From a virus (taxonomy: Duplodnaviria > Heunggongvirae > Uroviricota > Caudoviricetes): a stretch of 9,822 nt of DNA. The stretch lies in the IMG/VR virus record IMGVR_UViG_3300015182_000005; one strand, written 5' to 3'. The position numbers and the translations under genes were made by a program. The notes under the pieces were generated by a model, which ran no database searches, was not told the origin of the DNA, and was given only the letters and a program-made list of their open reading frames with translations. Positions 111-9,822 of the stretch are shown piece after piece. The first letter of the stretch is position 1, and every line of letters begins with the position of its first letter.

Positions 111-140
111 GCGTCAATACGGTGCTCCGTTGACGCTTAC
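111..140. repeat. Putative IS66-type terminal inverted repeat (right end), with an internal 9-bp palindrome AAGCGTCAA / TTGACGCTT
   Basis: GCGTCAATACGGTGCTCCGTTGACGCTTAC; outer end is 5'-GTAAGCG on the complementary strand. Exact inner boundary of the repeat cannot be set without the other IS end. Confidence 0.55.
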
Positions 141-3100
141 CCTGACCCCAAGAGAGCCGTCCGCTGCCCGTGTCAGTGGCATGATTGCTTCAGGCCCGGC
201 CTCGCCCATCAACCCGGCCCCCTTCGCAAAAGCAAAATACGTCGGTGTATCCACAATAGTGTTACTGTAAGCACTCAGATTTGCCGATGTGTAAACACCA
301 CCTTTTGCGTTTGCCACTGCCCCCGAAATCCATCCGCCGACCGTACCAAGCCACCCTCCGGCACCGGAGAGTGATTTCAGTCCGTTAACAATGGCTGCAT
401 TCATCAGAATTTTTGAAACTTCCCGGAGAACTGAACTCCCCCAGTTCCTCCAGTCCACAACATTTCCGGCCAGTGCATCGGAAATATTTGATACCAGCCC
501 GTCCATAGTGGAAACGACAGCATCTGCCGCCTGCGAAGCATAATCGGTGGCACTGTCTGCCCAGTTGGTCAGCCCCTCCTGGAGTCCTGCATTCCAGTTA
601 TTACGTAAAGCATCGGCCTTTGCATAATAATCCTGCTGATCGCTGAGACGCTCTTCCAGATATTTTTTATTCAGTTCTTTCTCCTGTTTCCACAGGGCTT
701 CTTCAATTTCTCCGGCCTGATACTGTCTCAGCAGCTCGTTATTTTTCTGCTCAAACTCATGCCGGATACTCCACATTTCCTGGAGTCGTTCACGCATCCG
801 TGAGCCTTCACCATATCCCAGTAACTGCGCGTCGTTAGACGCCCGGGTACTGGCATTACTGTCCGCCAGGCTGCTTTCATACGCAGCAAGCTGCTCACGA
901 ATCTTTTTCTGGTCGATGAGTGCTGCATTCTGCAAAAGCGTTTTTTTCTGCGCTTCTGACAGGGTTGATAATTCGCCCTGACTGACCTGATATTTCATCT
1001 TAGCCAGTTCAGTATTCTGCCCTGCCAGTGCTATCTGTTCTTTTTGCTGTTTAATCAGCCGTTTATAAATATCTTCTGTTTTTTCCGCTTCGGTCTTTTT
1101 ATGCGCTTTGGGTTTATTTGCCTGGTTATTTCGCCAGGCATCCAGTGAGTTATTGATATAATTCTGTCTGGCTGTCTGATACGCCTCTCCCACAAAGCCA
1201 AGATCATCCGCAGCATAGCCCAGTCGAGCACGCTCACGCGCTTCCCCCTTAAGGCGGGACAGAGCCAGTTCGCGCTTGCTGTTATTCAGTGCGGTCTGCT
1301 GTTTATCATCCAGGGTTGCCTGTGGTAGCCGTAACGGTACATTCACCAACCCCTGTCGCTGCTGAAGTAATTCATTACCAAGCCCAAGAAGGCGATTAAA
1401 CTCGGTATGCTGCCCATTCATGATCAACAGGGACTGATACGCTTTGTTTTGTTCCGCCGCCTGTTGACGGATCAACGCAACCCGCCGCTCCTCCAGCCCG
1501 GCAAGCACATCCTGAATGGATTGCGCTTTGCCCTGCATTTGTGTGAGACGGGACTGTTCAACTGCCAGTTGATTTGTTGCTTCTGCAAGCCCTTCTGTGA
1601 CTGTTTTTACCGACGTCATGTGGTTAATCATAAAACCGTTATCGGTTGTCCAGCCCGGGTTTGCCAGCACATACTGATAGCCAGCAATTTTTTCCTGTAA
1701 GGATTTAATCTTACTTTTCTGCTCGTCAATTAACCTGTTTTGCTCATCAAGTGCCTGCCGCGTCTTTTCCTCATTATCTGACGCTTCAGGAAGCGACATT
1801 GCCGACGTTTTCTGGCGAATTTCGTCGATTGTTGCGGCATACTGGCGTGCAGATTCTCTGGCCTGCTCCTGATTCTGATACATCGTGTACCAGGCCGTCG
1901 CCCCCAGCATGACGAGTCCCGGCACACCACCAACCAGCCCCAGCGCACCACTTAACAGACGACTCCCCACTGACGTGACAGTATTCAGCGTTGTCTGCGC
2001 CGCTGTTCTGGCCGCAATATTACGGGTAAGTGACGCCTGAGCAGCTGTCAGCTTCGCTTCTGCTGCGGCCTGCCTTTCGGTACCGCGAGCAGCAACAACC
2101 GCCTGTTGCGCACGATAAACCGCCGCACGCGCTCTGGCGGTTGCTATCTGTGTCCCCCGAAGTTGCGCTTCAGCAAGAGCCACTTCGTTTCTGGCTGCAG
2201 TAATTAATCCGGCAGTTGCAGATCCAGCAGACGACGCCATATTGCCAAAATATCGGGCTACCCCGACGGCAACCAGTGCGCCAGCTGCAGCAGCCACGGT
2301 ATCAATATTGTCTGCAACACCATTCAGCACACCGGAGAGTGTCTTTGTCACTCCGCTTGCCTCGTTCGCACCACCAACCCAGGCCATAAAGGCGTTTTCA
2401 ACTTTGGTTGCAGAGGATGAAACAGTATCAGGCATTGCTGCATATTCATCACGCAACGCCCCAAGCTGACTAATCAGTGCAGGAACAACCTTATCGGCGG
2501 TCAGTTTTCCGTTATCCGCCATGGCCTTCAGATCCTTACGGGCAACCCCCATTCCCGCAGCCAGCGCACGAATAACACGATCGCCGTTCTCATTCACCGA
2601 GTTAAACTCTTCACCGCGCAGCACTCCCTGCGCCAGTGCCTGACTGAACTGCATGATCACCGAACTGGCTTCTGCTGTACTGGCACCGGATAATTTCAGG
2701 CCCGTGGAGATCGCCTCGGTGACTTTCAGTACCTCCTCAGAACTGTAACCATACTCCCGCATGGAAGCTGCAGAACGGGCAAAAAGGCTGGCGTTATCAG
2801 AAAACGCCGTCCCCGTTCTCTGGCTGATCGCCATTAATTCACGCTGTGATGCCTGAAAATCATCACTGGACTGTGAGGCCTGCTTCAGACGGGCATTTAC
2901 TGAATTCCACTCATCGGCGAGAGAAATAAGATGACCGGTAGCAAAAGCCCCGGCAAATGCCCCCGCCATATTCAGTGCCGAAGATTTAGCTGTATTTATC
3001 TGATCCGTCACTTCTGCCAGTGCACGCCGCATTTCACGGGAGGCAGCAGCAGACTGTTGGCCTCCGTTCTGCATGGTGCGGTAGTAATCCTGCCCCATAC

Positions 3101-3185
3101 GCGAAGCCCGGGAGATCTCTGACTGGAATGACCGGGAGTTTGCCGAGATTTTAATAATCAGTTCACGTAATGTCGCCACACTCAT
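114..3185 (-). CDS. Tail tape measure protein (lambda gpH-like), 1023 aa as it stands; the last 8 codons and the stop are IS-derived, so the native C-terminus is probably missing
   Basis: Long ORF directly downstream of the G/GT chaperone pair. Ala/Gln-rich coiled-coil middle section, hydrophobic glycine-rich segments, and a C-terminal region (NWADSATDYASQ ... GEAGPEAIMPL) resembling the lambda H C-terminal region. Codons 140..117 (VSVNGAPY) and the TGA at 116..114 lie inside the IS terminus. Confidence 0.88.
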   Translation of the reverse strand: MSVATLRELIIKISANSRSFQSEISRASRMGQDYYRTMQNGGQQSAAASREMRRALAEVTDQINTAKSSALNMAGAFAGAFATGHLISLADEWNSVNARLKQASQSSDDFQASQRELMAISQRTGTAFSDNASLFARSAASMREYGYSSEEVLKVTEAISTGLKLSGASTAEASSVIMQFSQALAQGVLRGEEFNSVNENGDRVIRALAAGMGVARKDLKAMADNGKLTADKVVPALISQLGALRDEYAAMPDTVSSSATKVENAFMAWVGGANEASGVTKTLSGVLNGVADNIDTVAAAAGALVAVGVARYFGNMASSAGSATAGLITAARNEVALAEAQLRGTQIATARARAAVYRAQQAVVAARGTERQAAAEAKLTAAQASLTRNIAARTAAQTTLNTVTSVGSRLLSGALGLVGGVPGLVMLGATAWYTMYQNQEQARESARQYAATIDEIRQKTSAMSLPEASDNEEKTRQALDEQNRLIDEQKSKIKSLQEKIAGYQYVLANPGWTTDNGFMINHMTSVKTVTEGLAEATNQLAVEQSRLTQMQGKAQSIQDVLAGLEERRVALIRQQAAEQNKAYQSLLIMNGQHTEFNRLLGLGNELLQQRQGLVNVPLRLPQATLDDKQQTALNNSKRELALSRLKGEARERARLGYAADDLGFVGEAYQTARQNYINNSLDAWRNNQANKPKAHKKTEAEKTEDIYKRLIKQQKEQIALAGQNTELAKMKYQVSQGELSTLSEAQKKTLLQNAALIDQKKIREQLAAYESSLADSNASTRASNDAQLLGYGEGSRMRERLQEMWSIRHEFEQKNNELLRQYQAGEIEEALWKQEKELNKKYLEERLSDQQDYYAKADALRNNWNAGLQEGLTNWADSATDYASQAADAVVSTMDGLVSNISDALAGNVVDWRNWGSSVLREVSKILMNAAIVNGLKSLSGAGGWLGTVGGWISGAVANAKGGVYTSANLSAYSNTIVDTPTYFAFAKGAGLMGEAGPEAIMPLTRAADGSLGVRVSVNGAPY

Positions 3186-3195
3186 TCTCCGGACG

Positions 3196-3217
3196 AAAAA
3201 AAACCGCCGAAGCGGTT
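3196..3217 (-). terminator. Intrinsic-terminator-like hairpin plus U8 between GT and the tape measure gene
   Basis: Minus-strand RNA AACCGCUUCGGCGGUU followed by UUUUUUUU (A-run at + 3196-3203), then CGUCCGGAGA and the ATG at 3185. Confidence 0.55.
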
Positions 3218-3225
3218 ATGTTGAC

Positions 3226-3914
3226 TCACTGAGACACTATTAAAAGCGCGTTTTCCAGTCCGGCAAATGGATCTGAAGCGCCTTCTGTCTGCTCCTTCTC
3301 CCACTGAAGAAGCGCATCATTCAGTGACACTTTGACCCCCTGCGCACCGTAAATAGCTGAAACAATCTGGGCAGCCCGGAAATCAGCCCGTTCGTCCCCC
3401 AGCGGGCTGAACCTGTCAAATTCTGCCCACATCATGATTTCTGATGCGGACATTTCCCGGCGTAACTCTGACAATGTGCGCCCCATCCTGAGCGCCAGCA
3501 TCATCAGAAAACGCATCCCCGGAAGCGCTACTTTTTTTTAACCTCGCCGGCATCACTGATCAGTTCCAGAGACTGCCGAAGAAGCCGCGCATGCACCGGG
3601 CCATACACGGCAATCACCTGTTCACGATCATCCTCTGAAAATACGGGTTGCAGTCCGGTATCACACAGAACATCAATGAACAGTTCAACATCTGCCTCCA
3701 GATTTCGGCGGGCGCGCTCCGCAACGGATAACGGTGTCTCATCATCTTTTGCTTTAACGATCTCCTGCCAGCGCAACCAGGCTTCTGCAGAAGGTTCCCG
3801 TAACACAACCGTTGCTCCCTCCCATTCAGGCACATCAACGGTTTTATGGCGAAACCCCGACATCGTTGCCAGTGCCAGATTACGGATATTTTTAGTCATC
3901 ACATCCATCCTCAT
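3226..3914 (-). CDS. Tail assembly chaperone GT-like fusion made by -1 programmed frameshift (G frame 3914..3531, then -1 frame 3537..3226)
   Basis: G ORF ends ...GEVKKK-stop on the run GTT AAA AAA AAG TAG. The -1 frame is open from 3537 and continues (VALPGMRFLMM...) to TGA at 3226. Position directly upstream of the tape measure gene matches the conserved G/GT arrangement. Confidence 0.7.
3528..3914 (-). CDS. Tail assembly chaperone (lambda gpG-like), 128 aa
   Basis: ORF between the major tail gene and the tape measure gene. Start ATG overlaps the major tail stop (TAATG); an alternative start at 3899 has GAGG 9 nt upstream. Ends in the slippery A-run. Confidence 0.75.
   Translation of the reverse strand: MRMDVMTKNIRNLALATMSGFRHKTVDVPEWEGATVVLREPSAEAWLRWQEIVKAKDDETPLSVAERARRNLEADVELFIDVLCDTGLQPVFSEDDREQVIAVYGPVHARLLRQSLELISDAGEVKKK
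3531..3537 (-). promoter_or_regulatory. -1 ribosomal frameshift slippery heptamer A AAA AAG (the dnaX-type site)
   Basis: Minus strand 3537..3531 = AAAAAAG in the X XXY YYZ register of the G frame, 1 codon before the G stop. The -1 frame downstream is open for more than 100 codons. Confidence 0.65.
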
Positions 3915-4618
3915 TAACTGACGGTTACAGTGCAGGAAGTGGAGGTCACTTTGTTAACCGGGCTCGCTGAATCAGAAATCTCGCAGGTATACGCACCGGC
4001 ATCACCGGATGCTGCTGATGCCTTACTGAACGTTGCCGCCGTCTGTCCGGAAACAGGAGAACCACCTTTTTTCCAGGCATAAGAATAAGGCGGCACACCA
4101 CCCACAGCCTCAACCGCCATTTCAAGTTTCGCTCCGGAAGCAACCCGCAGCGTGCTTTTTAAATCGACCTTCACTTTCAGCTGCTCTGTCGTCAGCACAG
4201 GCTTACCTTTCAGGCGCAGAGAAAACGTTGCAGCCACAACACCATTGGTTCCTGCAGACCAGGTATGCTGACGCACCTCTGCCATAAAGGTAAATCCGTT
4301 GCCTGACGGAAAAATAACTTTAAAGCCATACGTGGTGTCATTGTCATAGGCACTGCGCAACGCGTTCTGGGCAGCATTCAGATAAAAGTTGCCTGACATG
4401 GAAATCTCTGAAGCAGCCCCAAGACCGTTAATATTTTCCTGCTCAACAGAATACAGCGTGGTGACATCAATATCCTGCTTTTGTCCTGCGGTAAACTGCA
4501 CCTCTTTGATTGTACAGCTCAGGCCAAGATAGCTGGCAGAATCCAGGGTTTCTGCTGTTACCGGTGCAGACGAAATCATAATTTTCGTCAGTTGCGAACG
4601 CTCAAAATTAGAGGACAT
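3914..4618 (-). CDS. Major tail protein with C-terminal Ig-like domain, 234 aa
   Basis: Position immediately upstream of the chaperone pair. AGGAG 6 nt before the ATG. C-terminal ~85 aa (GGVPPYSYAWKKGGSPVSGQTAATF...GAYTCEISDSASPV...CTVTVS) has the pattern of phage Ig-like domains. Confidence 0.8.
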   Translation of the reverse strand: MSSNFERSQLTKIMISSAPVTAETLDSASYLGLSCTIKEVQFTAGQKQDIDVTTLYSVEQENINGLGAASEISMSGNFYLNAAQNALRSAYDNDTTYGFKVIFPSGNGFTFMAEVRQHTWSAGTNGVVAATFSLRLKGKPVLTTEQLKVKVDLKSTLRVASGAKLEMAVEAVGGVPPYSYAWKKGGSPVSGQTAATFSKASAASGDAGAYTCEISDSASPVNKVTSTSCTVTVS

Positions 4619-4630
4619 ACTCGTCTCCTG

Positions 4631-4657
4631 AAAATAAAAAAACCCGCCAGCGGCGGG
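4631..4657 (-). terminator. Intrinsic-terminator-like hairpin plus U-tract between the tail completion gene and the major tail gene
   Basis: Minus-strand RNA CCCGCC-GCU-GGCGGG followed by UUUUUUUAUUUU, then CAGGAGACGAGU and the ATG at 4618. Confidence 0.6.
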
Positions 4658-4678
4658 TGGGTAAAATCATTAATGACC

Positions 4679-5023
4679 TCAGGCTATTACCTGGAATTCA
4701 AGCGTGGCTCTGCTCAGACGGGAGTCAGGATCATAACCCTGCGTTTTAGAAATAACGGAGGGTGCCAGTTTTCTTACCGCATCAAGCGCCTGCTCACGAA
4801 TATTATCTGCGTCATCAGGTACTGTCGCCCAGACATCGATCTGCACGGTAATTCTGGATTCAGCCTGCCCATCAAGCACATCAGATACCGTGTCAGACAC
4901 CACAGAAAACACCAGCCACGGCGGAGATACTGCAGGCTTTCCCTCCGTCAGCGGGACCACATAAGGATAAACCTGTCCTCCGGCCAGCTGAGACAACAGG
5001 GAATACAGTGTGCCCTCCCTCAT
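4679..5023 (-). CDS. Tail completion / tail component protein (DUF3168-like), 114 aa
   Basis: Position between the gp10-like gene and the major tail gene; sequence pattern resembles the DUF3168 family by recall. Start overlaps the upstream stop by 4 nt. Confidence 0.6.
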   Translation of the reverse strand: MREGTLYSLLSQLAGGQVYPYVVPLTEGKPAVSPPWLVFSVVSDTVSDVLDGQAESRITVQIDVWATVPDDADNIREQALDAVRKLAPSVISKTQGYDPDSRLSRATLEFQVIA

Positions 5024-5469
5024 TTACTTAAGACCTCATCAATAGCCTGATTCATTCGCTGTATGGCAACCTGCGCCGCCAGCTCCTCTGTCGTATCGAA
5101 AGCCGGGCGAATGAATGGATGCGCGGGCATGTTTATCGTTCCCAGCTCCACAAAGCGCCAGTAAAATGCATTTCGGGGATCGCTGGCTTTCATGCTGTTA
5201 TCACTGTTTCCGGTTCGCAGGTTCCGTCCGCGAATGTGGACACCCGAGATAATTTCCCCCCGACGCTTTGAACGCTGAGTGAGAACAACCACATTTTTCT
5301 TCAGTTTCCCGGTTCGCTCCGGCGCACGTTCAACAACTGCATCCCGCATAACTTCAGCACCGGCACGGGTGGCATCGCGCAGAACCTTATTGTTTTCTGC
5401 CCTGCTGAGCGTCTCCAAATCCCGTGCAATATCCGCCAGGCCGGAAAAATCAAGACTGAAATCCATCAC
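5020..5469 (-). CDS. HK97 gp10-like head-tail joining / tail component protein, 149 aa
   Basis: Contains ...GTINMPAHPFIRPA..., similar to the MPARPF-type motif I associate with the HK97 gp10 family. Syntenic position; start overlaps the upstream stop. Confidence 0.65.
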   Translation of the reverse strand: MMDFSLDFSGLADIARDLETLSRAENNKVLRDATRAGAEVMRDAVVERAPERTGKLKKNVVVLTQRSKRRGEIISGVHIRGRNLRTGNSDNSMKASDPRNAFYWRFVELGTINMPAHPFIRPAFDTTEELAAQVAIQRMNQAIDEVLSK

Positions 5470-5804
5470 ACATTCCCCTTCAGGCTGCAGAGTATTTCAA
5501 GCCGGGTAGCGCGTGCATCCGGTATTGGTGGACCTTCTATACCCAGAATGGCCCCTTTAAATGCACCGGTCAGCACTTTCAGACGTGAAGTCGCTGTCAC
5601 ATCGCGCCGGAATCTCATCCAGACTCTGACCGTAGCCTGAGCGGTTTCTGCTCCGCCTGAGATTATCTCCCTCCCGCTGATACCCTTAACTTCTGCCCAT
5701 ACGGTAGCTCCCTCCGTCACCGTCTCCACCGGATGCCCTGACGGAGAGCGGGCGGTGGTGACATTCAGAATAATTACGCGATCACGTAATCTGCCCGCCT
5801 GCAT
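5466..5804 (-). CDS. Head-tail adaptor / head closure protein (Phage_H_T_join-like), 112 aa
   Basis: RLRDRVII...VWAEVKGISGREI...VRVWMRFRRDV... pattern typical of phage head-tail joining proteins. Strong GGAGGAG between the upstream stop and the ATG. Confidence 0.65.
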   Translation of the reverse strand: MQAGRLRDRVIILNVTTARSPSGHPVETVTEGATVWAEVKGISGREIISGGAETAQATVRVWMRFRRDVTATSRLKVLTGAFKGAILGIEGPPIPDARATRLEILCSLKGNV

Positions 5805-5812
5805 GTCTCCTC

Positions 5813-6130
5813 CTACAAAGGAATAAAACGATAAGGCTCCAGCAGAGAAGAAAAACCAAACGGGACTGGTGCCTTACTGACATCTGAGGAATTTTCCCGG
5901 TTTTCGCACCAGTGCCCGACCAGCAACATGAGCGCCAGCAAAACATCATCAGCTATAAGCACCCCTTCAGGATCACCTTCCGGCACCGTCTCCTCATAAA
6001 GCTTACGGTTGATAAAATTTTCTGCCTTGCGGCAGGCAGCCCGGAAATACAGCATCAGTAACTCATCATCAGTTGCATCATCTGTATCAATACGGCACTG
6101 CGCCCTGAGTTTTTCCACTATTGCTGCCAT
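5813..6130 (-). CDS. Head-tail connector protein (phage gp6-like), 105 aa from the ATG at 6130
   Basis: MAAIVEKLRAQCRIDTDDATDDELLMLYFRAA... resembles gp6-like connector N-termini. AGGAG 6 nt upstream of the ATG at 6130. The longer 165-aa ORF in the track would overlap the capsid gene by 104 nt and has no ribosome-binding site. Confidence 0.7.
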   Translation of the reverse strand: MAAIVEKLRAQCRIDTDDATDDELLMLYFRAACRKAENFINRKLYEETVPEGDPEGVLIADDVLLALMLLVGHWCENRENSSDVSKAPVPFGFSSLLEPYRFIPL

Positions 6131-6163
6131 CAGAAACTCCTGCCCGCAACACTGTGCGGGCAT

Positions 6164-6185
6164 AAAAAAACCGCGTCGGCGCGGT
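6164..6185 (-). terminator. Intrinsic-terminator-like hairpin plus U7 immediately downstream of the major capsid gene
   Basis: Minus-strand RNA ACCGCG-CCGA-CGCGGU followed by UUUUUUU. A second hairpin GCCCGCA-CAGUGU-UGCGGGC at 6141-6160 abuts the connector AGGAG. Confidence 0.6.
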
Positions 6186-6206
6186 CTGTAACTGAACAAC
6201 GAGTGG

Positions 6207-7424
6207 TTATTTGCCAGTGAGCGCCTTGATGGCTGCCACATCTTCCAGCACACAGTCAAAACGATGGAAAGCCAGAAATGCCACCTGATCAAACTCAGCA
6301 TAACGCTCAACCAGACGTTTCAGTTCCATATAAGTAACGCGGCGAATGATAAAGCGGTTGAAATCCCCCAGGAAAATGAATTTTTTTCCAGTACCAATCC
6401 CGTCAATAGCCTGATCAATAACATAAGGGATCCCCAGCACAGTAGCCGGCGTACCGCCTGCAATATCCGGCAGCCATAACGGGCGTTTCTGTCCATCCTC
6501 CATCTCTTCAATAGTCTGCAATGTGGCATCATTGAATGCCCAGCGGTATTTCGGCCCACCACGATATGCCGGATCAATGGCATGTTTCAGGGCATTCATT
6601 TCTTTCCAGGTGAAAGCGGCAGAGGCTGCAGTCTGGATGGTTCCCGTCACCGACGCTGCCAGCCCTTTTGGCTGTAACGGTGATCCCGTTCCGGTCCCCT
6701 GAACCAGATATTTTGCCTCTCCACGACCAATACGCTGGGCAATACGGTTTGCCAGATAAGATTCAATATCCACCCCACTGTCCTGGAGCAGCTCATTGGA
6801 CACACGAATTATTTTTGATGACAGCTTTTTAGCCCCCAGAATAGCGGTCCCGAACGTCACATCCTGTTCCGTTGCGGCTGTATTTTCCGCCAGCAGTTCG
6901 CCCTCTTCAGTCGTGCCATCAGACGTTGACCAGGTGATATCCTGCCCGGTTGATGTGGTCAGAAGTTGCGCCACACTGGCAATCCCGCCATAAGCCTTCA
7001 TGGTGTCAATGATTTTGTTACGCATCTGCGTGGGCACCGTATATCCGCCCTGAGAATCCGTTGTTACACTCTGAGCCCGCAGTTCACGCATCAGATTACG
7101 CTCTTCAGCATTCAGTTCTGCAAATCCGGCACGCAGAAAACGGTTAAATGCCGCAGCACGCTTCTCTTCCACCGCCTTTTTCCCGTTCTCCGCCTCATTA
7201 TTCTGGCGCTCTTCCGGCCCGGACTCATCCACATATGCCTGATCCTGACGGCGCAACTCTTCTTCACGGGCGATTTGCTCATCCAGCGCATCCAGCTCAG
7301 CTTTCGCCCTGTTCCACTCAGCCCGTTGCTCATCAGTCCATGCGTTATCACCAATTTTTTCATGCAGTGCACGCATATCCTTTGCAATGGTGTTTCGTTT
7401 TTGCTTCATCTCATGAAGTTTCAT
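6207..7424 (-). CDS. Major capsid protein, HK97 fold, with N-terminal delta (scaffolding) domain, 405 aa
   Basis: Immediately follows the prohead protease with no scaffold gene. First ~115 aa are a highly charged coiled-coil-like region (delta-domain-like), followed by a capsid-like body. Confidence 0.88.
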   Translation of the reverse strand: MKLHEMKQKRNTIAKDMRALHEKIGDNAWTDEQRAEWNRAKAELDALDEQIAREEELRRQDQAYVDESGPEERQNNEAENGKKAVEEKRAAAFNRFLRAGFAELNAEERNLMRELRAQSVTTDSQGGYTVPTQMRNKIIDTMKAYGGIASVAQLLTTSTGQDITWSTSDGTTEEGELLAENTAATEQDVTFGTAILGAKKLSSKIIRVSNELLQDSGVDIESYLANRIAQRIGRGEAKYLVQGTGTGSPLQPKGLAASVTGTIQTAASAAFTWKEMNALKHAIDPAYRGGPKYRWAFNDATLQTIEEMEDGQKRPLWLPDIAGGTPATVLGIPYVIDQAIDGIGTGKKFIFLGDFNRFIIRRVTYMELKRLVERYAEFDQVAFLAFHRFDCVLEDVAAIKALTGK

Positions 7425-7438
7425 CGTCAGTAGTATCC

Positions 7439-8038
7439 TTATGCATTAAGAAGGGTCAAAAGGCGCTCACGCGCCATTCGTTCATTAACAGCTTTCTTCA
7501 GCGCACCACTCGCCCGCGCTTCCTGCCAGGCTTTCATTGAGCGGACACCGGAGTCTGCGTCCTGATAGGCCGGATATGTCACCGGGCTGACGTCATACAG
7601 ACGAGAAATGCGCGTGATTTCCCGGATAACAATCCCCTCGTCGTCTTCATACCAGCTCTCTCCGTCACTGGCGACACGAAACGCGAACGAGGACTGGTTA
7701 ATGTCACCACGCAACATTGGAGACAGCACCAGGTCACAAATAGTCGGAGTATCCGGTGCAACAATGTCATAACGTAAACCGCGTTCATCCACCGACAATG
7801 ACAATGTGCCGGCAGAACTTCGTCCGAGAATGAAATTAGGATCATGATTAAACAAGCCACGTACATCATCATTCAGTACATCATCAAAAGCCCCCGGCTT
7901 GATGATTTCACGAAATCCCCACAGAGGTTCTGAACGACTGTTAAATACCGAGCCATACCCCAGAATGTGGGTCGGGGCATTATCATATTGTTCCGCCCGC
8001 ACCTCCCCGCTGTAACAGCGCGTTTCACGATCATTCAT
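7439..8038 (-). CDS. Prohead maturation protease (HK97 family), 199 aa
   Basis: Position between portal and capsid. Motifs GYGSVFN, LFNHD (His) and INQSSFAF (Ser) are consistent with the HK97 prohead protease family. Start overlaps the portal stop by 8 nt. Confidence 0.82.
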   Translation of the reverse strand: MNDRETRCYSGEVRAEQYDNAPTHILGYGSVFNSRSEPLWGFREIIKPGAFDDVLNDDVRGLFNHDPNFILGRSSAGTLSLSVDERGLRYDIVAPDTPTICDLVLSPMLRGDINQSSFAFRVASDGESWYEDDEGIVIREITRISRLYDVSPVTYPAYQDADSGVRSMKAWQEARASGALKKAVNERMARERLLTLLNA

Positions 8039-9257
8039 CGTTCTTTTCCTCTGTGCCTTTCGTATCTTTAAAGTTATTCAACGGATTTGCTGCATTTACG
8101 CTGACCAGCATTTCATCCAGACCGTCAACCGGGTTCATATCCTCAAATGCCCTGGCTTCATTCCGACTCATCCAGCCATCTGTAATGGCAAAGTGATAGA
8201 ACTGCGCACGCTCCTGTGGGGTCCCACGGAGCAACCCCGTGAGGTTAAAACGAACGTAATACCCGGCAGCCCGTTCTGTACGGGTAAACAGGCGACGGTT
8301 AAGCTCCTGCTCCCAGTTCGCAACCCAGGGCATCATCGTGTAGCGAACAAACTGAATCGCCTGCTGCGTAATATTCGAAAATGTGGCTTTTTCCAGGTCA
8401 TTAATCATGTGCGCCGGGACATTAAAAATCCCTGCAATCATCGACCTGTTCAGCTTGGTCATATCAATGATCTGAGCATCCACCGGAGAAACTGTCAGAG
8501 CGCGGTAATCCAGTTGCGCAGGCAACAGCATGGTTTTATTTTCCTGGCTGCGAAGCGCTGTCACCGCCCGCTGCCACATATTTTTAAGCCTGCCCCAGCT
8601 CTGTTCGTTCAGTTCATTTTTCACAGAAATAATACCGGCAGGACGGGCATTACCGTTAAAAAAGGCGCTGGTATACTGCTGGCCACTCATTCCCATACCA
8701 ATGGTTTCAGCATGCTGCATGATCGGGCTCAGTCCCATTTTCTGATTGTTTCCCAGCGCCCTGATATGGATCATGTCGTCCGGACTTACCGCAAATGCAC
8801 CCTCTTCGTTATACACCCCGTAAGTATGACGCCCACCGGTGTTAAGTAACGTGGTTTCCCATGGCATACAGCATTCAAGGCTGGTAACCTCTCCACGACG
8901 ATTACGTTTTACCCACGTATAACCATTGCCCCACCCCAGCACATGACGCTGCTTCAGTTCCCGCCACTTATAGCTGGTCTGCCAGGCATTAGGTTCATCA
9001 TGAACGAGCCAGAACAACGGATGATCGCGTGCAGGCTGAACATGCTCATTCGTTTTTCGCATCACATGCAGGGGCATCTGAGCCACACTGGATGAAATAA
9101 CATAAATACAGGCATAGACAGCAGCCAGCTTCATGGATGTTTCCGGACTGACATACACATCCCGGGCAAAAATATTATCCGTCTCAGCGGCCTCTCCGGT
9201 TACCGGAACCGAGGGATTTTCCAGAGACTCACTGCGAAACAGAGCATCAAGAAGCAT
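8031..9257 (-). CDS. Portal protein (HK97 family), 408 aa
   Basis: Position downstream of the large terminase; size and N-terminal pattern typical of HK97-type portals. AGGAGA 5 nt upstream of the ATG. Confidence 0.85.
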   Translation of the reverse strand: MLLDALFRSESLENPSVPVTGEAAETDNIFARDVYVSPETSMKLAAVYACIYVISSSVAQMPLHVMRKTNEHVQPARDHPLFWLVHDEPNAWQTSYKWRELKQRHVLGWGNGYTWVKRNRRGEVTSLECCMPWETTLLNTGGRHTYGVYNEEGAFAVSPDDMIHIRALGNNQKMGLSPIMQHAETIGMGMSGQQYTSAFFNGNARPAGIISVKNELNEQSWGRLKNMWQRAVTALRSQENKTMLLPAQLDYRALTVSPVDAQIIDMTKLNRSMIAGIFNVPAHMINDLEKATFSNITQQAIQFVRYTMMPWVANWEQELNRRLFTRTERAAGYYVRFNLTGLLRGTPQERAQFYHFAITDGWMSRNEARAFEDMNPVDGLDEMLVSVNAANPLNNFKDTKGTEEKNDE

Positions 9258-9387
9258 GTTTTCTCCTCATGGACACTACCAGTGCATAAAGCAGCAACAA
9301 ACAGCCCGACAGCATCAGAGACGCTGGCAGACCTGCATACAGATAAACGCCAGCAGTGAGCAAACCGAAACCGATCAGCCCGGTCAT
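9247..9387 (-). CDS. Hypothetical 46-aa hydrophobic (two-helix membrane) peptide between terminase and portal
   Basis: ATG at 9387 to TGA at 9247 encodes MTGLIGFGLLTAGVYLYAGLPASLMLSGCLLLLYALVVSMRRKHAS: two hydrophobic stretches, a basic C-terminus, and CTG-rich enterobacterial-like codon use. No clear ribosome-binding site; below the ORF-track size cutoff. Confidence 0.35.
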   Translation of the reverse strand: MTGLIGFGLLTAGVYLYAGLPASLMLSGCLLLLYALVVSMRRKHAS

Positions 9388-9404
9388 ATCAGTAATAAGC
9401 TGTT

Positions 9405-9822
9405 TCACAGAATTAACAGGTCCTCATCAGGATCAAGCGTGGACAGAAAGTCATTCACGCCCCCGCCATTTACCAGAAAGCGGCTCATGGCCGTAAAAAG
9501 CGCAACAGGGCCGTCGATTTTGGCTTCAGGCGTGGATTTATTCGGGAAGATGTTGTCGTTTTTGTCCGGTTTTACCGTAACGTTAGACATCATCCAGTTC
9601 ATGACCGGATGATTGCTGTGATGGAAACGCCCGGCATAAACCAGTGATTCCGTTTCCTTCATGGCCTCTGACAGATTGCGGACCGTCTGCGGAACCTCCA
9701 CCAGCGGTATCCCTTCTTCAGCCAGTGCCAGGCTGAACTGCATTGCGCTCCACGGGTCAAATCCCAGTTCCCTGAGGTTTTCACCGCCAATCCATTCCAG
9801 TAAGTCACTTTTTATCTGAGCA
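9405..9822 (-). CDS. Terminase large subunit, C-terminal part (N-terminus lies outside the window)
   Basis: Frame is open from the window edge to TGA at 9405. C-terminal sequence ...VTVKPDKNDNIFPNKSTPEAKIDGPVALFTAMSRF... matches the conserved KIDG..A end of HK97-type large terminases. The track lists only the part from an internal Met. Confidence 0.82.
   Translation of the reverse strand, partial: AQIKSDLLEWIGGENLRELGFDPWSAMQFSLALAEEGIPLVEVPQTVRNLSEAMKETESLVYAGRFHHSNHPVMNWMMSNVTVKPDKNDNIFPNKSTPEAKIDGPVALFTAMSRFLVNGGGVNDFLSTLDPDEDLLIL

What the first reader, a model, noticed from the sequence alone, without database searches (positions are those of the whole stretch)
3914..4171. Ig-like domain fused to the C-terminus of the major tail protein
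The last ~85 residues (…GGVPPYSYAWKKGG…GAYTCEISDSASPV…CTVTVS) have the signature of the Ig-like domains that decorate phage virions. Here the domain is fused directly rather than added by frameshifting. Such domains are thought to mediate weak adherence to cell-surface or mucosal carbohydrates.
Basis: partly seen in the sequence, partly recalled or inferred. Interest (0 to 1): 0.35.

Follow-up and report, generated by a model that had tools for sequence, protein, structure and literature searches.

The report
Ig-like domain on HK97-type tail tube
The last ~88 residues of this prophage's tail-tube protein are a genuine immunoglobulin-like domain fused in frame, but this is the already catalogued HK97 gp12 arrangement, found in about one in six complete E. 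coli genomes, so the finding is correct and ordinary.

Summary
Observation confirmed. Window 3914-4618 (- strand) is one 234-aa ORF. Residues 1-140 are a lambda-gpV-like tail-tube domain. The type is I-set/Ig_2, not Big_2. The fusion is in frame; no frameshift is needed.

The protein is 71% identical over its full length to HK97 gp12, which a published review lists as an I-set-bearing major tail protein. The gene is 100% identical to deposited E. coli phages, occurs in 899 of 5,426 complete E. coli genomes, and RefSeq already calls it "immunoglobulin domain-containing protein".

Added here:
- Natural Ig-less relatives (147 aa, ~78% identical tube domain) sit in the same gene order.
- The two domains recombine independently.
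- pN/pS is about 20 times higher in the Ig domain (0.26 vs 0.013).

These points fit a dispensable, fast-evolving surface module. Glycan adhesion is inferred, not shown. Already known; low interest.

The parts
3914..4618 (-). Major tail (tube) protein gene, 234 aa plus TAA stop; a single continuous ORF
   Evidence: ORF; phrog_158 major tail protein, 1e-106; 71% identical to HK97 gp12 over 234/234 residues; 100% nt identity to four deposited E. coli phages annotated 'putative major tail subunit'
4199..4618 (-). N-terminal tail-tube domain, residues 1-140 (ends ...LRLKGKP)
   Evidence: Foldseek: lambda gpV structures 8iyk_D, 7t4f_A, 8k36_A, E 3.5e-8 to 1.2e-5. Sub-threshold Pfam Phage_TTP_11, Phage_tail_2 and Phage_TTP_12. 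Ig-less relatives of 147 aa end just after KGKP. Strongly constrained: pN/pS 0.013
4181..4198 (-). Inter-domain linker, residues 141-146 (VLTTEQ); the most variable stretch of the protein, with indels in relatives
   Evidence: Alignment A1; column entropy 1.9 bits for residues 141-150
3917..4180 (-).
   Evidence: Pfam Ig_2 33.5 bits > 27; PDB sequence hits to T5 pb10, Sf14 gp20 and Sf11 gp24; AF2 pLDDT 89-95 with strands A-A'-B-C-C'-E-F-G; Foldseek 3bfo_A TM 0.90 rmsd 1.4 A, Hoc of phage wast TM 0.91 rmsd 1.0 A
4073..4102 (-). GGVPPYSYAW motif (residues 173-182): B-C loop plus the core Trp of strand C; G173, G174, P177 and W182 are invariant in 37 homologues
   Evidence: invariant columns; the same GGxxPYxYxW motif is in T5 pb10; weak Pfam SprB-repeat match at this spot
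3983..4003 (-). DAGAYTC (residues 206-212): the classical Ig strand-F motif D-x-G-x-Y-x-C
   Evidence: Read directly from the sequence; aligned to the same motif in Sf14 gp20, the 9ncf protein and CEA; G208 nearly invariant
4632..4658 (-). Terminator-like hairpin (ACCCGCC-GCT-GGCGGGT plus T7) 24 nt upstream of the tail-tube ATG, followed by a CAGGAG ribosome-binding site
   Evidence: HK97 has a 'putative terminator' annotated at the equivalent place before gp12
3528..3899 (-). Tail assembly chaperone G (123 aa from ATG 3899), starting 15 nt after the tail-tube stop; this fixes the 3' limit of the fusion
   Evidence: Pfam Phage_TAC_1 2.7e-58; annotation of the identical phage

Best explanation
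The gene encodes an HK97-gp12-type siphophage tail-tube protein made of two independently folding modules. Residues 1-140 polymerise, presumably as stacked hexameric rings around the tape-measure protein as in lambda gpV, to form the tube. Residues ~147-234, tethered by a six-residue variable linker, form a single Ig-superfamily (Ig_2/I-set) beta-sandwich, translated in frame, so every subunit carries one copy. Scaling the 1023-aa tape measure to lambda (853 aa, 32 rings) suggests about 200 copies per virion; this number is an inference. The most likely function is an accessory, non-essential adhesin. Many weak, multivalent contacts with surface glycans (host LPS or capsule, or mucus glycans in the gut) would hold the virion near cell surfaces and raise the rate of productive adsorption, as proposed for T4 Hoc and other phage Ig-like domains. 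Shown here: domain identity, fold, in-frame fusion, dispensability in natural relatives, modular recombination and relaxed constraint. Inferred: exposure on the outside of the tube, copy number, and glycan binding.
For: Identity and fold:
- Pfam Ig_2 scores above its cut-off.
- PDB sequence matches reach E 1e-16 to 1e-29, to the Ig domains of T5 pb10, Sf14 Hoc-like gp20 and Sf11 neck whisker gp24.
- The AF2 model has pLDDT 89-95 over the domain.
- Foldseek gives TM 0.90-0.91 to single Ig domains, and lambda gpV is the best whole-chain match.

In-frame fusion: one ORF with no internal stop.

Known architecture: 71% identity to HK97 gp12, which is listed with BP-4795 ORF64 and PY54 gp12 as I-set-bearing major tail proteins (PMC9022992).

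Accessory nature:
- 147-aa Ig-less tube proteins, ~78% identical in the tube domain, occupy the same slot, followed 9 nt later by the chaperone gene. This is seen in a metagenome contig and in the phage record Escherichia phage SaltyDalty.
- The domains have separate histories: P0006 is 83% (tube) / 96% (Ig) identical to the window protein, while P0008 is 97% / 75%.
- Mean pairwise identity is 73% for the tube domain and 52% for the Ig domain.
- pN/pS is 0.013 for the tube and 0.259 for the Ig domain among 45 unique close relatives, with 20 of 25 variable residues at positions 143-206.
- pN/pS below 1 and 899 of 5,426 E. coli genomes keeping the gene argue that the domain is still functional.

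Adhesion hypothesis: this is the literature consensus for such domains (PMC9022992, PMC8718954).
Against: There is no direct evidence that this domain, or HK97 gp12's, binds any glycan; the reviews state that the function of Ig-like domains on tail-tube proteins is unclear. The most conserved surface element (the GGxPPYxYxW loop) could just as well be a fold determinant as a binding site. In lambda the Big_2 domain of gpV contacts neighbouring subunits, and deleting it lowers activity 100-fold, so a structural contribution cannot be excluded. Higher pN/pS may reflect only relaxed constraint rather than adaptation to ligands.
Confidence: 0.6

Rival explanations
1. The Ig domain mainly serves the tail itself. 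It would stabilise or stiffen the tube through contacts between neighbouring subunits, or keep the monomer soluble and prevent premature polymerisation before the initiator complex is available, as suggested for the Big_2 domain of lambda gpV.
For: Removing lambda gpV-C lowers activity 100-fold, and the domain lies parallel to the tube and touches the adjacent subunit (PMC8718954). The whole-chain Foldseek best hits are lambda gpV. The domain is retained in every one of 81 close relatives without a stop.
Against: Ig-less tube proteins, ~78% identical in the tube domain, exist in the same gene order, so the tube does not need the domain. The two domains recombine independently, which argues against a co-adapted interface. 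The linker is the most variable part of the protein. The Ig family here (Ig_2/I-set) is not the Big_2 of gpV. In SPP1 the corresponding domain is not needed for infection or viability.
Confidence: 0.25
2. The virion carries a mixture of Ig-bearing and Ig-less tube subunits. A low-level -1 ribosomal slip at the heptamer T TTA AAA (codons 153-154, window 4163-4157), right at the domain boundary, would terminate 11 codons later and give a ~165-aa Ig-less subunit. This would be the mirror image of SPP1 gp17.1/gp17.1*.
For: It is the only in-frame X XXY YYZ heptamer in the gene, and it falls at the tube/Ig junction. All 81 close relatives keep a heptamer of this form (TTTAAAA in 34, TTTAAAC in 47).
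Against: About 0.9 such heptamers are expected by chance in 234 codons (own estimate: 1/256 per codon position). There is no downstream structure beyond shuffled controls (z = -0.08). HK97 has GAT CTT CCT at this site and no in-frame heptamer anywhere in gp12. Most homologues have Leu-Pro here, which cannot encode the motif. The conservation among relatives that are 95% identical or more is explained by relatedness. U UUA AAA/C is, from my own knowledge, a poor shifter in E. coli compared with A AAA AAG, which this same phage uses for G/GT.
Confidence: 0.03
3. The Ig similarity is spurious or a decaying remnant, with no folded or functional domain.
For: There is no NCBIfam model for the protein. 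Some database copies are frameshifted inside the domain (P0016, P0041, P0076).
Against: E-values reach 1e-29. The beta-sandwich model is confident. pN/pS of 0.26 indicates purifying selection, and all 81 close relatives have intact ORFs. The frameshifted copies break at A5/A6 homopolymer runs, which is typical of sequencing errors or sporadic pseudogenes.
Confidence: 0.01

Closest known systems
HK97 gp12 major tail subunit (NP_037706); also BP-4795 ORF64 and PY54 gp12, the 'I-set' class of Ig-bearing tail-tube proteins (Fraser et al. 2006, as tabulated in PMC9022992)
   Same: Same length (234 aa). Identity is 71% with no gaps over the whole protein, Ig domain included, and about 73% to BP-4795. 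The gene order is the same: tail terminator, tube, G/GT, tape measure. There is a terminator-like hairpin just upstream in both. The fusion is in frame in both.
   Different: Only allelic differences. The Ig domain is more diverged than the tube domain. The window has no intergenic terminator between the tube gene and G, whereas HK97 has one annotated there. The window allele has Y56 where all other homologues examined have C or G.
T5 pb10 capsid decoration protein, C-terminal Ig-like domain (PDB 5LXK, 8ZVI)
   Same: This is the best single-domain sequence relative with a solved structure: E 2.8e-16 and 38 identities in 83 aligned residues, including the GGxxPYxYAW motif and the CxVTV end.
   Different: The domain is attached to a capsid-binding domain on the head, not to a tail-tube domain. 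pb10 lacks the strand-F Cys (it has ...GSYKVTV).
Hoc-like decoration proteins (T4 Hoc; Shigella phage Sf14 gp20, PDB 9C2D)
   Same: Same Ig subfamily (E 1e-29, summed over repeats; D-A-G-x-Y-T-C and W-K-K-G motifs). PHROG Hoc-like families match at 1e-20. Foldseek gives TM 0.91 to a Hoc domain. The proposed role in surface or mucus adherence is shared.
   Different: Hoc-type proteins carry 2-4 tandem Ig domains on a capsid anchor. Here a single domain sits on each tube subunit.
Lambda gpV (tube domain plus C-terminal Big_2 Ig-like domain)
   Same: Same two-domain logic and the same tube fold; it is the best whole-chain structural match (8iyk_D, 7t4f_A; E ~4e-8).
   Different: Only 16-17% identity. 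The Ig-like domain belongs to a different family: Big_2 in lambda, with no Big_2 match here. The decoration was therefore acquired independently.
SPP1 gp17.1* and similar frameshift-appended Ig/FN3 domains
   Same: An Ig-fold decoration at the C-terminus of a siphophage tube protein, dispensable for infectivity.
   Different: In SPP1 the domain is added by a +1 frameshift to roughly a quarter of subunits (3:1 ratio). Here it is in frame, so it is presumably on every subunit.

Membership tests
Immunoglobulin superfamily domain (Pfam clan Ig: Ig_2 / I-set / Ig_3) | Profile-HMM score above the curated gathering threshold | tested here: met
   Ig_2 33.5 bits vs 27 (full protein) and 30.9 vs 27 (85-aa piece). 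I-set 24.0 vs 23.7 (piece) but 21.0 (full protein, below cut-off). Ig_3 27-28.6 vs 30 (below cut-off)
Immunoglobulin superfamily domain (Pfam clan Ig: Ig_2 / I-set / Ig_3) | Two-sheet Greek-key beta-sandwich of ~7-9 strands | tested here: met
   AF2 model, pLDDT 89-95, strands at 148-151, 156-159, 165-172, 179-184, 196-199, 208-215 and 223-233. Foldseek: MALT1 Ig C2 domain 3bfo_A TM 0.90, rmsd 1.4 A; Hoc domain TM 0.91, rmsd 1.0 A. This is a prediction, not an experimental structure
Immunoglobulin superfamily domain (Pfam clan Ig: Ig_2 / I-set / Ig_3) | Core Trp on strand C and D-x-G-x-Y-x-C motif on strand F | tested here: met
   W182 is invariant in 37 homologues; D206-A-G-A-Y-T-C212 is present. 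There is no Cys on strand B, so the classical B-F disulfide is absent. From my own knowledge this is common in I-set domains such as those of titin and is not a defining feature
HK97 gp12-type Ig-bearing major tail protein | Full-length homology to HK97 gp12, including both domains | tested here: met
   BLASTP 167/234 identities, no gaps, E 3e-128
HK97 gp12-type Ig-bearing major tail protein | N-terminal tail-tube fold, and gene position between the tail terminator and the G/GT chaperones | tested here: met
   Foldseek hits to lambda gpV tube structures. phrog_158 at 1e-106, with flanking phrog_347/78 tail terminator and Phage_TAC_1 / Phage_tail_T. Annotation of the identical phage record
HK97 gp12-type Ig-bearing major tail protein | The protein is the major component of the virion tail, with the Ig domain exposed on the tube surface | not testable with these tools
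   Needs virion proteomics or cryo-EM. Inferred from homology to HK97 gp12 and from lambda, T5 and YSD1 structures, where C-terminal Ig-like domains project outwards
Phage carbohydrate- or mucus-adhesive Ig-like domains (Hoc / BAM model) | Demonstrated binding to glycans or mucin | not testable with these tools
   Only sequence and fold similarity to Hoc-like domains is available. Reviews call the function on tail-tube proteins unclear
Big_2 domain (lambda gpV-C / T5 pb6 type) | Match to the Pfam Big_2 profile | tested here: not met
   No Big_2 match at E <= 1 for the full protein or for the 85-aa piece
Frameshift-appended Ig/FN3 extension (SPP1 gp17.1* type) | Domain encoded in a different reading frame from the tube domain, reached through a programmed shift | tested here: not met
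   Single ORF of 234 codons. The same holds in HK97 and in 81 close relatives

The most novel reading that the evidence does not exclude
The T TTA AAA/C heptamer that sits exactly at the tube/Ig boundary (window 4163-4157) could drive a low level of -1 frameshifting. This would produce a truncated, Ig-less tube subunit, so this clade of HK97-like phages would tune the density of Ig domains on the tail by frameshift-to-terminate, the reverse of the frameshift-to-extend logic of SPP1.
Probability: 0.03. Interest if true: 0.4.

Novelty: already known. Interest (0 to 1): 0.1.

Why it matters
It matters little as a discovery. The architecture (tube domain plus in-frame I-set Ig domain) is the textbook HK97 gp12 case, and RefSeq already names it as an immunoglobulin domain-containing protein. 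Its value is contextual. The allele is very common in E. coli prophages (about 17% of complete genomes). The comparative data gathered here include natural Ig-less siblings, independent recombination of the two modules, and a 20-fold higher pN/pS in the Ig domain. Together they make this family a convenient natural system for testing the long-standing, still unproven idea that tail-tube Ig domains are accessory adhesins.

Tried and rejected
The domain is Ig_2/I-set.
- **Programmed frameshift involvement.** I scanned the gene for in-frame X XXY YYZ heptamers and homopolymers. One heptamer lies at the domain boundary, but it is not conserved in HK97 or in most homologues. It has no downstream structure (z -0.08). 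About one such heptamer is expected by chance. Rejected as probably fortuitous and kept only as the low-probability novel case.
- **The A6 run at WKK (4072-4067)**, where database copies P0016 and P0076 are shifted. 64 of 81 close relatives have AAGAAA instead, and HK97 has AAG AAG. I interpret these copies as homopolymer sequencing errors or sporadic pseudogenes, not recoding.
- **A hidden Ig domain in another frame behind the 147-aa relatives.** The chaperone gene starts 9 nt after their stop codon, so they are truly Ig-less.
- **NCBIfam:** no model matched.
- **The viral-contig scan** returned only relatives that are 95% identical or more. This was useful for pN/pS but not for deep diversity.
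- **The 2026 gut-phage adhesin paper (PMC13370021)** did not mention tail-tube proteins.

Full report
**What is in the window.**
All real genes lie on the - strand and form the late structural module of an HK97-like lambdoid phage or prophage:
- large terminase C-terminus, 9405-9743
- portal, 8031-9257
- protease, 7439-8038
- major capsid protein, 6207-7424
- head-tail adaptor, within ORF 5813-6310 (annotated as 318 nt in the related phage record)
- head closure protein, 5466-5804
- gp10-like neck protein, 5020-5469
- tail terminator, 4679-5023
- major tail (tube) protein, 3914-4618
- chaperones G (3528-3899) and T (3226-3516)
- tape measure protein, 114-3185

The tube gene is 100% identical in nucleotides to four deposited E. 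coli phages (vB_EcoS-733R4, -640R1, -716R1, -813R8), where it is annotated 'putative major tail subunit'. Similar copies (80% nt identity or more) occur in 899 of 5,426 complete E. coli genomes, always on the chromosome. RefSeq calls them 'immunoglobulin domain-containing protein'.

**Checking the observation.**
The ORF is continuous: 234 codons plus TAA.

Profile searches give these results:
- Pfam Ig_2: E 4.9e-8, 33.5 bits, gathering score 27.
- I-set: 24.0 bits for the isolated 85-aa piece, against a cut-off of 23.7.
- Ig_3: just below its cut-off.
- Big_2: no match at all.

PHROGs place the whole protein in phrog_158 'major tail protein' (1e-106). The C-terminal piece also matches Hoc-like decoration families (1e-20).

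Against PDB sequences the domain matches the following:
- the three Ig repeats of Shigella phage Sf14 Hoc-like gp20 (9C2D) and the four repeats of 9NCF, each with a summed E of 1e-29
- the C-terminal Ig domain of T5 decoration protein pb10 (5LXK and 8ZVI; E ~3e-16; 38 of 83 aligned residues identical)
- Sf11 neck whisker gp24
- human CEA and CEACAM Ig domains

An AlphaFold2 model built on 37 homologues has mean pLDDT 80. The C-terminal domain scores 89-95 and folds as an A-A'-B-C-C'-E-F-G sandwich.

Foldseek returns lambda gpV as the best whole-chain match (E ~4e-8). For the C-terminal domain alone it returns single Ig domains at TM 0.90-0.91 and rmsd 1.0-1.4 A (MALT1 Ig C2, a Salmonella phage Hoc).

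Classical Ig landmarks are present. The strand-C Trp (W182) is invariant. The strand-F motif D-A-G-A-Y-T-C is at 206-212. A GGxPPYxYxW B-C loop is shared with pb10. The only adjustment is that the domain starts near residue 147 rather than 150, after a six-residue hypervariable linker.

**In-frame fusion.**
The claim that the domain is fused directly rather than by frameshifting is correct. There is one ORF here, in HK97 gp12, and in all 81 close relatives fetched from viral contigs.

I looked for hidden recoding. The gene has one in-frame X XXY YYZ heptamer, T TTA AAA at codons 153-154, which happens to lie at the domain boundary. A -1 slip there would stop 11 codons later. Several facts argue against a function:
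- About 0.9 such heptamers are expected per gene (own estimate).
- The downstream RNA folds no better than shuffled sequence (z -0.08).
- HK97 has GAT CTT CCT at this position.
- Most homologues have Leu-Pro there.

I regard it as chance.

Database proteins P0016, P0076 and P0041 are shifted at the A6 (4072-4067) and A5 (4160-4156) runs. Sixty-four of 81 relatives have AAGAAA instead of A6. These copies look like homopolymer errors or occasional pseudogenes.

**What it is and how it probably works.**
The protein is 71% identical, without gaps, to HK97 gp12. A review of siphophage tails lists HK97 gp12, BP-4795 ORF64 and PY54 gp12 as the 'I-set' examples of Ig-bearing tail-tube proteins, citing Fraser et al. 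2006 (PMC9022992). The window gene is an allele of that family.

- Tube proteins of 147 aa, ~78% identical in the tube domain and ending just after the KGKP motif, occupy the same slot. The chaperone gene starts 9 nt later. This is seen in a 1.39-Mb metagenome contig (L002) and in the phage record Escherichia phage SaltyDalty. The tube therefore does not require the Ig domain.
- The two domains have separate histories. P0006 is 83% (tube) / 96% (Ig) identical to the window protein, while P0008 is 97% / 75%.
- Across 37 homologues, mean pairwise identity is 73% for the tube domain and 52% for the Ig domain.
- Among 45 unique close relatives, pN/pS is 0.013 in the tube domain and 0.259 in the Ig domain. 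Twenty of 25 variable residues lie at positions 143-206.

These data fit a folded, selected, but dispensable and rapidly diversifying surface module.

The most likely mechanism is the standard one: weak multivalent adherence to glycans on the host envelope or in mucus, which increases encounter and adsorption. This is inferred from Hoc and other phage Ig-like domains and is not demonstrated for this family. I give the adhesin reading about 0.6. A structural or assembly role, as partly seen for lambda gpV-C, gets about 0.25. The domain identification itself is essentially certain.

**Comparison and novelty.**
The protein is a member of the HK97 gp12 family; every testable defining feature was met. 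Its Ig domain belongs to the same subfamily as those of pb10 and Hoc-like decoration proteins. This illustrates the known promiscuity of the module among head, neck and tail proteins. It differs from lambda gpV (Big_2 domain) and from SPP1 gp17.1* (frameshift-appended FN3). Nothing here departs from what is published and already annotated, so I rate it as already known with low interest.

**Other things seen.**
- The G/GT chaperone pair uses a canonical A AAA AAG -1 site immediately before the G stop. The fused product is 224 aa.
- Terminator-like hairpins lie just upstream of the tube gene and between T and the tape-measure gene.
- A 53-aa hydrophobic ORF lies between the terminase and portal genes.

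Noticed in passing
window 3531-3537 (- strand), with G 3528-3899 and T 3226-3516: There is a canonical -1 slippery heptamer A AAA AAG directly before the TAG stop of chaperone G. Slipping there reads through into the T frame without a stop and gives a 224-aa GT fusion (…EVKKK-VALPG-MRFLMML…). This matches the 224-position phrog_14766 profile and HK97's annotated -1 frameshift product.
   Followed up: yes
window 4632-4658 (- strand) and 3194-3217 (- strand): Two strong terminator-like hairpins sit inside the late operon. ACCCGCC-GCT-GGCGGGT plus T7 lies 24 nt upstream of the tail-tube ATG; HK97 has a 'putative terminator' annotated at the same place. AACCGC-TTCG-GCGGTT plus T8 lies between T and the tape-measure gene. 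Six terminator-like sites were found in 2 kb against 1.6 expected. They may set expression ratios under antitermination.
   Followed up: partly
window 4157-4163 (- strand): The only in-frame X XXY YYZ heptamer of the tail-tube gene (T TTA AAA) lies exactly at the tube/Ig boundary. A -1 slip would give a ~165-aa Ig-less product. It is not conserved outside the close clade and has no downstream structure, so it is probably chance.
   Followed up: yes
window 4067-4072 and 4156-4160 (- strand); proteins P0016, P0041, P0076: Several database copies of this protein are frameshifted at the A6 and A5 homopolymer runs inside the Ig-domain coding region. The shifted frame stays open for ~40-65 codons (ORF 3946-4143). 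These are probably sequencing errors or sporadic pseudogenes.
   Followed up: partly
window 4451-4453 (- strand), residue 56 of the tail-tube protein: This allele has Tyr at position 56, in the long, low-confidence loop (residues 46-67). By analogy with lambda gpV (own inference) this loop would make ring-to-ring contacts. Every other homologue examined has Cys, or Gly in one subgroup.
   Followed up: no
window 9247-9408 (- strand): A 53-aa strongly hydrophobic ORF (two predicted membrane-spanning stretches) is wedged between the large terminase and portal genes, overlapping both ends. It is annotated only as 'hypothetical protein' in the related phage record.
   Followed up: no
L002 4001-4444; L005 2501-2944: Ig-less 147-aa versions of the same tail-tube protein (~78% identical in the tube domain) occur in the same gene order, including in the phage record Escherichia phage SaltyDalty. 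They are natural controls for the function of the Ig domain.
   Followed up: partly
window 114-3185 (- strand) vs L001 8440-11667: The tape-measure ORF in the window is 1023 aa. In phage vB_EcoS-813R8, whose tail-tube gene is identical, it is annotated as 1075 aa. This suggests an indel or a different allele, and hence a different tail length.
   Followed up: no
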